Shown here: positions 1,773 through 8,094 of the stretch, in pieces
Layout of the letters: each line of letters opens with the position of its first letter
How positions within the stretch are numbered: position 1 is the stretch's first letter
Source of the DNA: a virus
Lineage: Duplodnaviria > Caudoviricetes
Strand: one strand, 5' to 3'
Virus record (IMG/VR): IMGVR_UViG_3300037837_000037
Span: 7,694-71,693 of that record
Length of the DNA stretch: 64,000 nucleotides
Translations under genes and position numbers: made by a program
The notes under the pieces: model-generated
Told to the model about the DNA's origin: nothing
The model's database searches: none
The model's input: only the letters and a program-made list of their open reading frames with translations

Positions 1773-2306
1773 CTATTCCTTACTCTTGATTAAAGCGTAA
1801 TAACCTGGATCTAGGATTGAAATTTTGTGCATGTTTTCTTCGTAGTCAGCCATTAACTTCCTTCCTTCAATGTCATGCTCGTAAGTGTGATGGCAATCTA
1901 CGCAGTGATAAGTGATGTTGCTAACTACCGCTTCAAGTTTCTTGTTTTGACCTGTAGGGACCAAGTGCGAGTGAGTTAAGTTACTCCCCACGCCACAACC
2001 AGTGCAAAAATGCGGGATGCTCTCAGCAAGTAAGTCGTATGCTTTGTGTTTATTCTTTATATTCCTACCTTCCCGTTTAGACACTTTATTAGGACCAGCA
2101 ATATTAACTTTGATCGGTTTTTTACTTGGTTTTAACGGGGTTCTTTTTAAAGTATGAACCTTTTTCTCTTTTACTGCATATTGCTTGAGATCCTTATGTT
2201 CTTTGCACAAAAAGTTCTTTCCTACCTCAGTACATTCTGTGATTTGCATACAGTGTCTACATATTGCTGTTTCCATAATTGCGAATATAGCATAAAAAAA
2301 GCTCAA
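1773..2306 (-). CDS. NinG/HNH-like zinc-binding nuclease
   Basis: CxxC..HSH...CxxCH pattern (CTGCG, THSHL, CVDCHH); true start may be the ATG at 2276. Confidence 0.6.
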   Translation of the reverse strand: MSFFYAIFAIMETAICRHCMQITECTEVGKNFLCKEHKDLKQYAVKEKKVHTLKRTPLKPSKKPIKVNIAGPNKVSKREGRNIKNKHKAYDLLAESIPHFCTGCGVGSNLTHSHLVPTGQNKKLEAVVSNITYHCVDCHHTYEHDIEGRKLMADYEENMHKISILDPGYYALIKSKE

Positions 2307-2377
2307 TACTTAGTACTGAGCTTCTAATCGGAATTTATCCTCTCCGACAATAAAATGCGGGAGAACAAAGATATAAT

Positions 2378-2706: not shown

Positions 2707-3141
2707 TTAACTCCAGTATTTTAATTCAGCTTCTTTACGAGCAGCTATCGCTTCTTCTTTGTTTTCAAAAGCCCCTAAATGGACACGTTTACCTCCGTAA
2801 CTTATCCTAGCAGTCCATTTAAGACCTCTAGACTCTCTAAAATGAACACCTCTACATCCAGAAGTATTGTCTTTCCTTATGTTTTGATTTCTACACTGTG
2901 TAGTTTGATCCGCCCACCTACAGTTAGAACTGCTATAACTCTTATTACTATCTATCCTGTCTAAAGTTTTCCCTTCAGGTCTCACCCCCATATCAGCCAA
3001 GAACGTTTCAAAAGAATTTACCCAGGTACTGCATACGCTTATTCCTTTTCCTCCGTAAATAGAATAATCTTTGTGATTTGGATTTGAACACCTTTCCTTC
3101 ATTCCTCTCCAGGAATCATAACCTTTAATATTACTTATCAT
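2707..3141 (-). CDS. HNH homing endonuclease with C-terminal AP2 domain
   Basis: W..MK.RC.NPN...Y..YGGKGI, TLDRID...Y..SNCRWA (HNH_3 type); GV...KWTARI...KRVHLGAF..KEEAIAARK (AP2). Confidence 0.9.
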   Translation of the reverse strand: MISNIKGYDSWRGMKERCSNPNHKDYSIYGGKGISVCSTWVNSFETFLADMGVRPEGKTLDRIDSNKSYSSSNCRWADQTTQCRNQNIRKDNTSGCRGVHFRESRGLKWTARISYGGKRVHLGAFENKEEAIAARKEAELKYWS

Positions 3142-3231
3142 AAAATAAAAAAACCATTAAGCTTTCGTGGTCGTGACACTACTCGCTTAATGGAATTATA
3201 ATGATTTTTAAATGTAGTCACGACTCTACAT
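3142..3231 (-). ncRNA. structured 5' leader (two kissing hairpins plus terminator) of the HNH-AP2 gene
   Basis: hairpin 3231-3212 with loop AGUCGUGA; hairpin 3193-3154 with GAGUA/GAAA internal loop and apical loop UCACGAC; U7 tract, then AUG. Confidence 0.7.
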
Positions 3232-3234
3232 CGG

Positions 3235-3264
3235 TAAATGTATTAAAAATTATGGGTTAAGCAA
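3235..3264 (-). promoter_or_regulatory. Bacteroidota-type housekeeping sigma promoter
   Basis: TTG (3264-3262)-N19-TACATTTA (3242-3235); predicted +1 at 3231. Confidence 0.65.
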
Positions 3265-4460
3265 CACACTTGACCTTCTTTTTTATGGTGTATAAACGCT
3301 TCTATAGCTTGTTTCGCATGTGTATAACCTGAATCAAAATGCCATAAGTCAGCGGGAGAAGGACTTCTCAAGTGTTGAACAGTAACCCCTTGGTAATCTT
3401 TTGCAGATTGAAACTTAACCTTTATTTGATGGTGAAAGTGATGTAAGTAAAAATATCTGTAGTATGTTTCACCCCATATCTTAGGAGCTTCATTAGCCAT
3501 TAAAAGAGGAGCGTCTGCTGCTTTAAACTTATCACCATGACTTAATCCAATCAAGTTATTACCCCATTTAAAATACTTCCTATGCCTGACGTTTAAATCA
3601 AAAGTGATATTTGCACTTTTTCTAAACCAACTAGAGATAGAATCAGCTAACATCCACCCTGACACGTAGTCATGGTTAGACATGACGTGAACAACTTCAA
3701 CATCAGCTACTGTAAGCAACGATTCTATAACATCTACATACATCTGCTTAGCAATCCTAAAACCCTCGTACCATCTATTAGAAACGTCCTGAGGAGTACC
3801 TCTAGTTGTGGTGTTTGTAACATTATCCACATTCAAAACATCATTCCCAATAATTAGTACGATTTTTTCCAGGGGGAAACCAGAAGCTTTCTGTAAAATA
3901 CCTTCTATAGCTTCTTTTACTCTTTTAACAGCTATTTCAGAATTATAAACACCTCCAGTCTCTTCTTCTGTTGCTTTTTTATTTACATGAATGTCCGCTG
4001 GATCTATAACAAGCAAATGCTTATCTGTTATAGGTTTTCTTTTGTAAGTTTTATAAGTCGGGGAGTATTTCCCCATCTCGTTAACGAAGTCAGCTCTCAT
4101 CTCATCAAAACTCACCACTTCACTTACATTCTTCACAAAGATACTAGCACCATTCTTATCTTTCAACCAAGCATGTTTCCATTTAGCACCACTTGCTTCA
4201 GTAAGGCCATTGTCAAGCATTTGCTTTTCAACTTTATCCATATACTCTTCTGGGATAAGAACCTTATCTTTTTTAGTAAATGGATCTTCAAATTTTCTGT
4301 GTGCTGTATAGTCAGGATGTTGGTTTAACGCTCTCCCTACCCTTGAATTATCAAAACTAACATTATACTTGCTAGTCATCATTTTGGCTATTTGCCGTTG
4401 TGTAAAACCTTTGTGATGTAATGCAATAAACTCGTCAATATTATCGTTATACTTTCCCAT
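3243..4460 (-). CDS. calcineurin-like metallophosphoesterase with N-terminal HTH-like region
   Basis: DPADIH, GNDVLNVD, SNHD, SHGD and HHFHH metal-binding motifs. Confidence 0.8.
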   Translation of the reverse strand: MGKYNDNIDEFIALHHKGFTQRQIAKMMTSKYNVSFDNSRVGRALNQHPDYTAHRKFEDPFTKKDKVLIPEEYMDKVEKQMLDNGLTEASGAKWKHAWLKDKNGASIFVKNVSEVVSFDEMRADFVNEMGKYSPTYKTYKRKPITDKHLLVIDPADIHVNKKATEEETGGVYNSEIAVKRVKEAIEGILQKASGFPLEKIVLIIGNDVLNVDNVTNTTTRGTPQDVSNRWYEGFRIAKQMYVDVIESLLTVADVEVVHVMSNHDYVSGWMLADSISSWFRKSANITFDLNVRHRKYFKWGNNLIGLSHGDKFKAADAPLLMANEAPKIWGETYYRYFYLHHFHHQIKVKFQSAKDYQGVTVQHLRSPSPADLWHFDSGYTHAKQAIEAFIHHKKEGQVCCLTHNF

Positions 4461-7407: not shown

Positions 7408-8094
7408 TTAAAAGGTCTTTGTCCTACCTAGTTTTAAATTGTTTTTACGTACCATTTCCGCAATATCTCCTTTTGTAAACCCTTTAAAATCACTAGGATC
7501 TTTAGATGTATCTTTCTTTACAACCACTTGCATCTGCTCAACATAATTATCATTAAGACCCTCTCTAAGCTTTTCATCAAACTTCTTTGCGAAATCCTCT
7601 TCAATCTCCTTCTTGATTTTATTTTTCGGAGCAGGTATCCTTACCGACTCAGTCATCGGCTTGCTAAAAAAGAGAGTCTCATCCTTATCTATACACCCTA
7701 CAGCAGTTAAGTATTTGAGAACCCCGCTTCTTGACACTTTTAAAACACTAGATATGTAAGTTGCGTTTTTTCCATCTTCATACATCTTGACAATCCTACA
7801 TACCTGCCCCTTAGAAGCGAAAAAGATAAGGTTTTTAACCGCTACGTTTAAATTAACACCATCAAACCACTCACCTATACCTCTTCTATCATGAAATAAA
7901 TCATGCATCCACTTCTCAACATCAGCATAGTTATCTATAGGCTTAGTGTAGTGGTACAACCTCATCTTACATCCAGACTGAGTCATTATAGCTTGAAACC
8001 TTTTCTTCGGATTGCCAGAGTAGCCAATCTTAACCCTTTTATTTTCTTCATTTAGTATCAAATAAACACTACGGACATTCTTTCTTATCTTCAT
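7408..8094 (-). CDS. T5orf172/GIY-YIG-like domain protein with HTH-like C-terminal part
   Basis: VYLI...VKIGYS.NP.KR...I.TQSG...VEKWMH..F...R..GEWF; then a helix-turn-helix-like segment (ATYISSVLKVSRSGVLKYL). Confidence 0.75.
   Translation of the reverse strand: MKIRKNVRSVYLILNEENKRVKIGYSGNPKKRFQAIMTQSGCKMRLYHYTKPIDNYADVEKWMHDLFHDRRGIGEWFDGVNLNVAVKNLIFFASKGQVCRIVKMYEDGKNATYISSVLKVSRSGVLKYLTAVGCIDKDETLFFSKPMTESVRIPAPKNKIKKEIEEDFAKKFDEKLREGLNDNYVEQMQVVVKKDTSKDPSDFKGFTKGDIAEMVRKNNLKLGRTKTF

What the first reader, a model, noticed from the sequence alone, without database searches (positions are those of the whole stretch)
3142..3264. Kissing-loop, loop-E attenuator leader controlling an HNH-AP2 homing endonuclease
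Seen on the minus strand: promoter TTG-N19-TACATTTA whose predicted +1 (3231) is the first base of hairpin 1, AUGUAG-[AGUCGUGA]-CUACAU. Hairpin 2 follows: CCAUUAAGC-GAGUA-GUG-[UCACGAC]-CAC-GAAA-GCUUAAUGG, then UUUUUUUAUUUU-AUG. The two apical loops are perfectly complementary over 7 bp (GUCGUGA/UCACGAC). Established: AGUA/GAA is the sarcin-ricin/loop-E motif, and a stem plus U-tract is an intrinsic terminator. Inference: a ~90-nt cis-regulatory RNA in which loop-loop pairing, or a protein or antisense RNA that blocks it, decides termination versus read-through into a toxic nuclease. It is conceptually similar to P1 c4 / P4 CI control. I do not recognise it as a named Rfam family.
Basis: partly seen in the sequence, partly recalled or inferred. 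Interest (0 to 1): 0.8.

Follow-up and report, generated by a model that had tools for sequence, protein, structure and literature searches.

The report
Kissing-loop leader RNA of phage cassettes
In front of a mobile nuclease-like gene of this marine phage lies a ~90-base RNA leader (promoter box, two hairpins whose tips base-pair with each other, the second ending in a stop signal); matched mutations in a dozen related copies show that the fold is real, it is in no RNA catalogue, and it probably throttles the gene behind it.

Summary
On the minus strand, 3242-3142 holds a TAnnTTTA box, hairpin 1, an A/U linker, a 40-nt interrupted hairpin 2, a U-tract and then the ATG.

By itself the fold is only modest (z -2.2). 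Comparison settles it. I found 12 further distinct copies in metagenomic phages.
- All nine that were found without reference to their loop sequences keep a perfect 7-8 bp Watson-Crick match between the two apical loops, each with a different sequence.
- In the formal count, 42 of 42 cells pair, 5 of 7 positions show compensatory changes, and 0 of 500 shuffles do as well.
- Both stems covary and contain G-U pairs on the sense strand only.

The leader is portable. It arrives with the HNH/AP2-like gene as a roughly 590-bp insertion and is absent from relatives that lack the gene. It also occurs at another insertion site, and in front of KilA-N, replication-initiator-like and unknown genes.

The promoter box is conserved (perfect TAnnTTTG in most non-nuclease copies). 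The -33 TTG and the loop-E motif are not.

The most likely function is a promoter-proximal, kissing-assisted terminator that keeps expression low. This is untested.

There is no Rfam match and I found no paper. Earlier notes of this scan describe similar leaders on other genomes.

The parts
3243..4460 (-). Upstream gene: 405-aa exonuclease-like protein. Its stop codon lies immediately before the promoter box.
   Evidence: ORF list. phrog_704 'DNA repair exonuclease', E 9e-71. 45% identical to Flavobacterium phage proteins.
3262..3264 (-). It lies inside the exonuclease coding sequence.
   Evidence: Sequence. The spacing is not conserved in the other copies, so it is doubtful as a functional element.
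3235..3242 (-). Promoter-like -7 box TACATTTA (TAnnTTTG type, last base A).
   Evidence: All 10 copies tested have a TAnnTT box ending 1-5 nt before hairpin 1. The box is a perfect TAnnTTTG in L214, L249, L250, L251 and L257. It is also perfect, but 13-14 nt upstream, in L127 and L058, and 4 nt upstream in L255.
3212..3231 (-). Hairpin 1: 6-bp stem (3231-3226 with 3217-3212) and 8-nt loop (3225-3218).
   Evidence: Minimum-energy fold. RNAalifold consensus. Covarying stem with G-U pairs.
3218..3224 (-). Loop 1 heptamer GUCGUGA, the 5' partner of the kissing helix.
   Evidence: Exact complement of 3176-3170. In alignment A8, 42 of 42 cells are Watson-Crick and 5 of 7 positions are compensatory.
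3194..3211 (-). A/U-rich, unstructured 18-nt linker.
   Evidence: Unpaired in the minimum-energy fold. Linkers are 15-21 nt in most copies and longer in L257, L255, L127 and L058.
3154..3193 (-). Hairpin 2: lower stem 3193-3185 with 3162-3154; internal loop 3184-3180 and 3166-3163; upper stem 3179-3177 with 3169-3167; loop 3176-3170.
   Evidence: In the lower stem, 7 of 9 pairs show compensatory changes. The RNAalifold consensus agrees.
3170..3176 (-). Loop 2 heptamer UCACGAC, the 3' partner of the kissing helix.
3142..3153 (-). U-tract (seven U, one A, four U) between hairpin 2 and the start codon. It is the terminator tail and also the A/U-rich translation-initiation region.
   Evidence: Sequence. 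At least four U follow hairpin 2 directly in every copy.
2707..3141 (-). Downstream gene: 144-aa protein with a PacI-like (HNH-type) N-terminal domain and a C-terminal AP2 DNA-binding domain. It behaves as a free-standing homing-endonuclease-like mobile gene.
   Evidence: phrog_374, E 1e-51. AP2 domain. N-terminal domain against PacI 3m7k_A: Z 5.8, 72 residues aligned, 26% identity. Model pLDDT 92.6. Presence/absence polymorphism in relatives.

Best explanation
The spacer is a portable, cis-acting leader RNA, in four parts.
1. A host-type -7 promoter box starts transcription at or just before hairpin 1.
2. After a 15-20 nt A/U linker, the long interrupted hairpin 2 is made.
3. The apical loop of hairpin 2 pairs over 7-8 bp with the loop of hairpin 1, an intramolecular kissing complex. 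This probably stacks the two hairpins into one rod spanned by the linker.
4. Hairpin 2 followed by the U-tract then acts as an intrinsic terminator.

Most transcripts, whether from the leader's own promoter or reading through from the upstream gene, would therefore end just before the ATG. Only a small read-through fraction would express the DNA-binding or DNA-cutting accessory gene behind it.

The kiss is selected because the apical part of hairpin 2 is too weak alone: a 3-4 bp stem closing a 7-13 nt loop, above an internal loop. Docking on hairpin 1 would lock it and let the lower stem zip up in time.

Shown here: the fold, the loop-loop pairing, its portability, and the conserved box and U-tract.
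Inferred: the transcription start, termination, the assisting role of the kiss, and low expression as the purpose.
For: 1. Structure. Hairpin 1 plus hairpin 2 is the minimum-energy fold in all five copies tested and the RNAalifold consensus. In alignment A8, 93% of cells pair, 19 of 25 pairs show double changes, and 0 of 500 shuffles reach this. Slid controls drop to 35-50% paired.

2. Kiss. 42 of 42 cells are Watson-Crick and 5 of 7 positions are compensatory. Ten copies give 73 of 73 Watson-Crick pairs. Loops from different copies match over only 2-5 nt. Nine of these copies were found by protein homology, by a covariance model that leaves the loops unpaired, or by a pattern with N in the loops, so their loop match is an independent test.

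3. RNA on the sense strand. 20 of 197 stem pairs are G-U. The U-tract and the box have one orientation.

4. Stable state, not a switch. The nested alternative that uses the 7-mers is 3-13 kcal/mol worse. The loop duplex adds -9 to -10.5 kcal/mol.

5. Terminator.
- At least four U follow hairpin 2 in every copy.
- The distance to the ATG varies from 8 to about 29 nt, and is about 350 nt in L058. This argues against occlusion of the start codon.
- An A-tract that can pair with the U-tract is common.
- In relatives without the insertion, the exonuclease gene has no terminator. Hairpin 2 is therefore brought by the cassette.

6. Portability.
- L038 compared with L045 shows leader plus gene as one insertion at the exonuclease stop codon.
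- L208 has the leader at another site.
- It also precedes KilA-N genes and other genes.

7. Precedent. Terminators and leader hairpins that limit free-standing homing endonucleases in T4-type phages (PMC2988022).
Against: - No transcript data.
- Hairpin 2 is not a textbook terminator. The simple scan did not flag it, while this phage's ordinary terminators are compact 11-13 bp hairpins.
- The window's own box ends in A rather than G, and the promoter pattern is not enriched in the window.
- A promoter placed directly upstream of its own terminator is wasteful unless the short RNA has a use or an antitermination factor exists.
- The kissing helix has no G-U pair in 73, against about 10% in the stems. 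This fits a strict kissing geometry, but it is also what DNA-level symmetry would give.
- Intramolecular rather than intermolecular pairing is not shown.
Confidence: 0.45

Rival explanations
1. The leader is an mRNA 5' structure that controls stability or translation, not termination. A 5'-terminal hairpin locked to hairpin 2 protects the message from 5'-end-dependent RNases. Alternatively it limits 30S loading on the A/U-rich start region of a host without Shine-Dalgarno sequences. The U-tract serves only as the ribosome landing site.
For: Hairpin 1 sits at the predicted 5' end. In the nuclease-gene copies the ATG is only 8-12 nt after hairpin 2, and no Shine-Dalgarno sequence is present. Aeromonas phage 25 seg43(25) has a stable hairpin just upstream of its ribosome site (PMC2988022).
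Against: The distance from hairpin 2 to the ATG is not conserved: 8 to about 29 nt, and far more in L058. A run of at least four U directly after the stem is kept in all copies, which a landing site would not require.
Confidence: 0.2
2. The promoter-to-terminator unit is a small RNA gene in its own right (about 85 nt). This would give cassette-specific dosage sensing or exclusion between related phages, as c4 does in P1/P7. The downstream gene merely rides on read-through.
For: The unit is complete: box, structured body, terminator. Every copy has a different loop pair, and loops from different copies match over only 2-5 nt. L038 and L208 have identical hairpin 2 stems (24 of 24 positions) but differ at 5 of the 16 loop positions (8-nt loop columns), including two compensatory pairs of substitutions in the kissing heptamers, while their genes are only 66% identical.
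Against: Loops do not evolve consistently faster than stems. L035 and L036 differ less in the loops than elsewhere. No second target for the loop 7-mer occurs in the window beyond chance. The linker length suits an intramolecular fold, which would outcompete pairing in trans.
Confidence: 0.15
3. The leader is a factor-dependent antitermination switch. It terminates by default, like lambda PR'-6S RNA-tR'. A phage or host factor that recognises the rod-shaped kissing complex, or melts it, lets RNA polymerase read through at a set time in infection.
For: The order promoter, short structured RNA, terminator, gene matches lambdoid late control (established knowledge, not tested here). The shape is conserved while the sequence varies.
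Against: No candidate factor was identified. No conserved sequence element for a protein to read, apart from the box. The downstream units are single accessory genes rather than operons.
Confidence: 0.12
4. The complementary 7-mers act in DNA. They would be an inverted repeat bound by a dimeric protein (for example the AP2 or KilA-N protein encoded downstream) or forming a cruciform, and the RNA fold is incidental.
For: The kissing helix has no G-U pair in 73, unlike the stems. The downstream proteins are DNA binders.
Against: The 7-mers lie exactly in the apical loops of two hairpins that themselves covary, with G-U pairs on one strand only. Thirteen different half-site sequences would need thirteen specificities across unrelated protein families. 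Their spacing varies from 48 to over 65 bp.
Confidence: 0.04
5. Chance: an ordinary terminator for the upstream gene plus an unrelated small hairpin.
For: The single-sequence z-score is only -2.16. The 7-mer count is near expectation.
Against: Nine of nine independently found copies keep full loop complementarity with different sequences. The element is absent wherever the inserted gene is absent.
Confidence: 0.01

Closest known systems
Regulatory leaders of T4-family homing-endonuclease genes: RBS-sequestering hairpins with embedded late promoters (I-TevI/II/III, segB, Aeh1 mobE); terminators in T4 mobE and segF; the seg43(25) hairpin. Source: Edgell, Gibb and Belfort 2010, PMC2988022.
   Same: RNA structure immediately upstream of, or at the start of, a free-standing mobile nuclease gene. 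A promoter is close by. Termination or hairpins limit expression, and the element travels with the gene.
   Different: There is no Shine-Dalgarno sequence to sequester. The promoter lies upstream of the whole structure rather than inside it. Two hairpins are joined by a covarying loop-loop helix. The host is of Bacteroidota type. The same leader also precedes genes that are not nucleases.
P1/P7 c4 antisense RNA and P4 CI RNA (immunity RNAs whose loops pair with nearby sites on the same transcript and cause premature termination). From established knowledge, not checked in a paper here.
   Same: A short phage RNA whose loop sequence has its complement encoded close by on the same strand. The complementary pair differs between relatives. 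The proposed outcome is termination.
   Different: c4 and CI are processed, trans-acting RNAs with several targets that lie farther away. Here both partners are apical loops of one ~85-nt leader, with geometry fit for an intramolecular kiss. There is no evidence of processing or of immunity.
Antisense kissing complexes of plasmids (ColE1 RNA I/RNA II, R1 CopA/CopT). From established knowledge.
   Same: Fully paired 7-nt loop-loop helices. The loop sequence acts as a specificity determinant.
   Different: Those are intermolecular and transcribed from opposite strands. This one is encoded in tandem on one strand.
Guanidine-II (mini-ykkC) riboswitch. From established knowledge.
   Same: Two small hairpins, separated by a variable linker and lying upstream of a gene, interact through their loops.
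   Different: Its loops are a conserved ACGR that binds a ligand. Here the loops are variable and fully Watson-Crick paired, and no conserved pocket exists. cmscan finds no match to any Rfam family.
Lambda PR'-6S RNA-tR' late control. From established knowledge.
   Same: A promoter is followed at once by a terminator, so a short RNA is the default product and downstream expression needs read-through.
   Different: No qut-like site or Q-like factor is known here. Single accessory genes lie downstream. A kissing loop is present.

Membership tests
Intrinsic (Rho-independent) terminator | Stable stem-loop followed directly by a U-tract | tested here: met
   A 9-bp lower stem is followed by seven U, one A and four U. 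At least four U follow hairpin 2 in all 13 copies.
Intrinsic (Rho-independent) terminator | Compact G+C-rich hairpin with a short loop | tested here: not met
   Hairpin 2 is 40 nt, A/U-rich and interrupted by an internal loop. It was not flagged by the consensus scan, which did flag this phage's compact terminators.
Intrinsic (Rho-independent) terminator | Transcripts end in the U-tract | not testable with these tools
Sarcin-ricin / loop-E motif | AGUA opposite GAA in an internal loop, conserved in homologues | tested here: not met
   Present in the window only. Other copies have UGAU/UGAU, UGAU/UAAU, UGAC/UGAU, GGA/GAA or a single U-U mismatch.
Bacteroidota housekeeping promoter | -7 element TAnnTTTG | tested here: inconclusive
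   The window has TACATTTA, with the last base differing. Eight copies have a perfect box (L214, L249, L250, L251, L257, L127, L255, L058). All 10 copies tested keep TAnnTT 1-5 nt before hairpin 1. The pattern is not enriched in the window.
Bacteroidota housekeeping promoter | -33 TTTG about 19-21 nt upstream | tested here: not met
   Only the window (19 nt) and L036 (20 nt) fit. The other copies have no TTG at that spacing.
HNH-AP2 homing endonuclease (downstream gene) | AP2 DNA-binding domain | tested here: met
   Pfam AP2 is weak in 6 of 7 members. The profile matches WRI1 AP2 at E 7e-7. Fold matches ERF1 and WRI1 at Z 6.6-6.7.
HNH-AP2 homing endonuclease (downstream gene) | HNH beta-beta-alpha-metal nuclease core with a catalytic histidine | tested here: inconclusive
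   The N-terminal domain resembles PacI (Z 5.8, 72 residues, 26% identity). There is no Pfam HNH hit. The usual His position is an invariant Arg.
HNH-AP2 homing endonuclease (downstream gene) | Sporadic presence at a conserved site (mobility) | tested here: met
   L038 has the insertion at the exonuclease stop codon. L045 and about 10 close relatives lack it. L208 has it at another site.
Any Rfam 15 family | cmscan match | tested here: not met
   Nothing overlaps the leader at E up to 10 in the window region. Nothing at E up to 1 in four relatives.
c4/CI-type phage antisense immunity RNA | Processed, trans-acting RNA that represses a target and defines immunity | not testable with these tools
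   Only the complementarity and its variation between relatives can be seen.

The most novel reading that the evidence does not exclude
The loop pair is an address code. The short terminated leader RNA accumulates and pairs only with cognate copies, either nascent leaders or each other in reciprocal dimers. Each cassette would thereby sense its own copy number, or exclude the matching cassette of a co-infecting relative. This would be an RNA specificity system carried by selfish phage genes, comparable to P1/P7 c4 heteroimmunity or plasmid incompatibility.
Probability: 0.12. Interest if true: 0.85.

Novelty: new variant of a known kind. Interest (0 to 1): 0.62.

Why it matters
How free-standing homing endonucleases and other selfish phage genes are kept harmless is understood only for a few T4-type cases. 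It is not understood at all for phages of Bacteroidota, whose hosts lack Shine-Dalgarno-based initiation.

This element is compact, portable and backed by covariation: a promoter plus an RNA fold that moves with such genes. If it is a kissing-assisted terminator, three things follow.
- It adds a new design to the known set of attenuators.
- It gives a ready-made, orthogonal set of 7-8 nt loop pairs for engineering.
- It offers a searchable signature for mobile cassettes in metagenomic phage genomes.

It would also justify a new RNA family entry.

Tried and rejected
- **Rfam scans.** The region and four relatives gave nothing relevant.
- **DNA similarity to cultured phages.** Only an unrelated 147-bp Staphylococcus phage match.
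- **Exact-motif scan of viral contigs with the window's loop-E plus loop pattern.** It returned 14 hits, all unrelated coding sequence.
- **L035/L036-type pattern in viral contigs.** No hits.
- **L038-type pattern in bacterial genomes.** No hits.
- **Relatives of the nuclease-like gene in bacterial genomes.** Ten loci, none with a leader.
- **About 110 loci with more distant relatives of the nuclease-like gene.** No leader by covariance model R1 (19 loci and 80). The 32 loci were searched with model R2, also without a leader. The element is therefore not a general feature of that protein family.
- **Closer relatives of that gene.** P0123, L117, L118, L119 and L211 have short or different spacers.
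- **Nested alternative helix (a switch model).** It is 3-13 kcal/mol worse than hairpin 1 plus hairpin 2 in all five copies tested.
- **Antisense sigma-70-like promoter on the + strand, 3173-3202.** Not conserved, and of the wrong type for the likely host.
- **AUG-UAG start-stop at the base of hairpin 1.** Window only.
- **Faster evolution of loops than stems.** True for L038 against L208 but not for L035 against L036, so not claimed.
- **Automatic covariance-model alignment of all ten copies (A9).** It misaligned hairpin 1 of the longer-loop subtype. Counts for those copies therefore come from my script, not from the count of structure pairs.

Full report
**1. The observation**

All coordinates below are on the minus strand.

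The exonuclease-like ORF (4460-3243) ends at the TAA at 3245-3243. These elements follow:
- the box TACATTTA (3242-3235);
- hairpin 1 (3231-3212), with a 6-bp stem and an 8-nt loop;
- an 18-nt A/U linker;
- hairpin 2 (3193-3154), with a 9-bp lower stem, a 5x4 internal loop, a 3-bp upper stem and a 7-nt loop;
- a 12-nt U-tract;
- the ATG at 3141.

The heptamers at 3224-3218 and 3176-3170 are exact complements. The 40-nt hairpin 2 is unique in the window.

ViennaRNA returns hairpin 1 plus hairpin 2 as the minimum-energy fold, at -20.1 kcal/mol and z -2.16, with 7 of 200 shuffles folding as well. That is suggestive only. The simple terminator scan did not flag hairpin 2, because its apical stem is short. 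It did flag this phage's ordinary, compact terminators. Rfam gives nothing on the leader.

**2. Context**

The window lies in a 71.7-kb virus record with direct terminal repeats.

The upstream protein is phrog_704, 'DNA repair exonuclease'. Its nearest cultured relatives are Flavobacterium phage proteins, at 45% identity. Genes in this region lack Shine-Dalgarno sequences. A Bacteroidota-type host is therefore a reasonable inference.

The downstream 144-aa protein hits PHROG families named HNH endonuclease.
- Its C-terminal half is an AP2 domain.
- In a confident model (pLDDT 92.6), the N-terminal 87 residues resemble the minimal HNH enzyme PacI best: Z 5.8, 72 residues, 26% identity.
- There is no Pfam HNH hit. 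The usual catalytic His position is an invariant Arg.
- 'HNH-AP2-like' is fair. 'Toxic nuclease' is unproven.

**3. Relatives keep the fold and vary the loops**

Two metagenome contigs, L035 and L036, have an exonuclease about 70% identical to the window's. They carry the same gene order and a 97-nt spacer with the same architecture. Their loop pairs differ from the window's and from each other, yet are again perfect 7-mers.

Further copies:

| Locus | Where it lies |
|---|---|
| L038 | same site, more distant phage |
| L208 (identical leaders in L209, L210, L212, L213) | before the same kind of gene but at a different site, next to a RusA gene |
| L214 | in a 35.7-kb phage; found with a pattern that left the loops as N; precedes a KilA-N protein (Pfam E 1.4e-13) |
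| L249, L250, L251, L257 | before KilA-N homologues; three have 8-bp kisses between 10-nt and 13-nt loops |
| L127 | before a replication-initiator-like gene |
| L255 | before a 117-aa unknown gene |
| L058 | about 350 nt before a Pfam HNH gene |

The last three came from a descriptor scan of all 948 kb held. It gave 21 hits in 13 distinct loci, of which 10 are distinct leader copies (L250 and L257 were missed), against 3 hits in block-shuffled controls.

*Formal counts on the six-sequence alignment A8*
- 93.3% of cells pair, against 70% in shuffles.
- 19 of 25 pairs show changes on both sides.
- 0 of 500 shuffles reach the observed covariation score.
- Slid controls give only 35-50% paired.
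- The kissing helix is paired in 42 of 42 cells, with compensatory changes at 5 of 7 positions.

RNAalifold independently predicts hairpin 1 and hairpin 2.

*Across ten copies*
- Cognate loops match over 7-8 nt. Loops from different copies match over only 2-5 nt.
- Stems contain 20 G-U pairs out of 197, so the structure is read on the sense strand.
- The kissing helix has none out of 73.

**4. A portable cassette**

L045 and about ten other relatives have the exonuclease stop codon followed within 17-50 nt by the next backbone gene. They have no leader.

In L038 the leader and the HNH/AP2-like gene sit exactly between those two points. The backbone sequence resumes after the inserted gene's stop codon. 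The closest relative lacking the gene, L121 (66% identical exonuclease), also lacks the leader.

Hairpin 2 is therefore not the exonuclease gene's own terminator. It arrives with the insertion.

L127 carries a different endonuclease-like gene at the same site with a 4-nt spacer and no leader. Several close homologues of the HNH/AP2-like protein have no leader either.

The leader is thus a separable module. It is shared among accessory genes in these phages and is not an attribute of one protein family.

**5. Promoter**

All ten copies tested have a TAnnTT box ending 1-5 nt before hairpin 1. Eight copies have a perfect TAnnTTTG.

The five copies in front of the HNH/AP2-like gene all deviate in the last two positions. 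This may mean weaker promoters.

The -33 TTG is not conserved. The full pattern is not enriched in the window.

The box is therefore supported by conservation and position. The exact start site is an inference.

**6. How it probably works**

- Hairpin 1 plus hairpin 2 is the lowest-energy state in every copy tested.
- Using the 7-mers as an ordinary nested helix costs 3-13 kcal/mol.
- The loop duplex would add about -9 to -10.5 kcal/mol.

This points to a stable tertiary kissing complex rather than a bistable switch.

The apical part of hairpin 2 is weak by itself. Docking on hairpin 1 would pre-organise it, so that the lower stem can close in front of the U-tract.

The U-tract is invariant in position. 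The distance to the ATG is not: 8 to about 29 nt, and more in L058. Many copies have an A-tract that pairs with the U-tract.

I therefore favour a promoter-proximal, kissing-assisted terminator that keeps expression of the downstream gene low (confidence 0.45).

Rivals:
- control of mRNA stability or translation (0.20);
- a small RNA with a function in trans (0.15);
- factor-dependent antitermination (0.12);
- a DNA-level inverted repeat (0.04).

**7. Comparison with the known, and novelty**

T4-family homing-endonuclease genes are limited by terminators and leader hairpins (PMC2988022). None of these has a loop-loop helix.

P1/P7 c4, P4 CI, plasmid antisense kissing complexes, guanidine-II and lambda 6S/tR' each share one feature (see Closest known systems). 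None shares the whole design.

Five literature searches found no description.

Earlier AI notes of this scan report similar kissing-loop leaders on other genomes. They agree with my reading, but they are not independent evidence, and I could not compare their sequences with mine.

Noticed in passing
window 2297-2325 (-) and 1773-2306 (-): A second HNH-like ORF carries Cys pairs and an H...N...H pattern, judged by eye. A compact terminator-like hairpin plus T-run sits directly in front of it, about 20 nt before its likely ATG. The pattern 'terminator directly before a nuclease gene' therefore recurs, here without a kissing partner.
   Followed up: partly
window 7408-8094 (-): A 228-aa protein with T5orf172/MUG113 and HTH_7 matches; PHROG calls it a homing endonuclease. 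This is a third selfish-gene candidate within 6 kb, and neither the covariance models nor the descriptor scan found a leader for it.
   Followed up: partly
L127 2666-2740 (+): In this relative a different endonuclease-like ORF starts 4 nt after the exonuclease stop codon. Its N-terminus looks NUMOD4-like by eye. The exonuclease 3' end therefore looks like an insertion hot spot for unrelated mobile genes.
   Followed up: no
L058 4790-5136 (+): About 350 nt of G+C-richer sequence without a convincing ORF lies between a leader copy and a Pfam HNH gene. The only Rfam match is sub-threshold: Betaproteobacteria-1, 29.3 bits against a gathering score of 49.4. It may be another structured RNA or an intron remnant.
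   Followed up: partly
window 2707-3141 (-) and alignments A4, A7: In this widespread 'HNH endonuclease' family, the position of the first HNH histidine is an invariant arginine (LDRID) in all 50 aligned members. The fold is closest to PacI. Whether these proteins cut DNA is open.
   Followed up: partly
window 3173-3202 (+): An 11-of-12 match to the E. coli sigma-70 consensus lies antisense to the leader. It is not conserved in relatives and is probably a by-product of the loop and linker sequences.
   Followed up: yes
L255 1890-1916 (+): An ordinary compact terminator for the KilA-N gene sits immediately before the promoter box of the next leader copy. The order is terminator, promoter box, kissing leader, gene.
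   Followed up: no
L038 2204-2246 and L037/L040 downstream of the exonuclease gene: The backbone gene after the insertion keeps its own TAnnTTTA-type box only about 5 nt before its ATG. This suggests a leaderless or very short-leader mRNA, and would explain why the insertion need not be polar.
   Followed up: no
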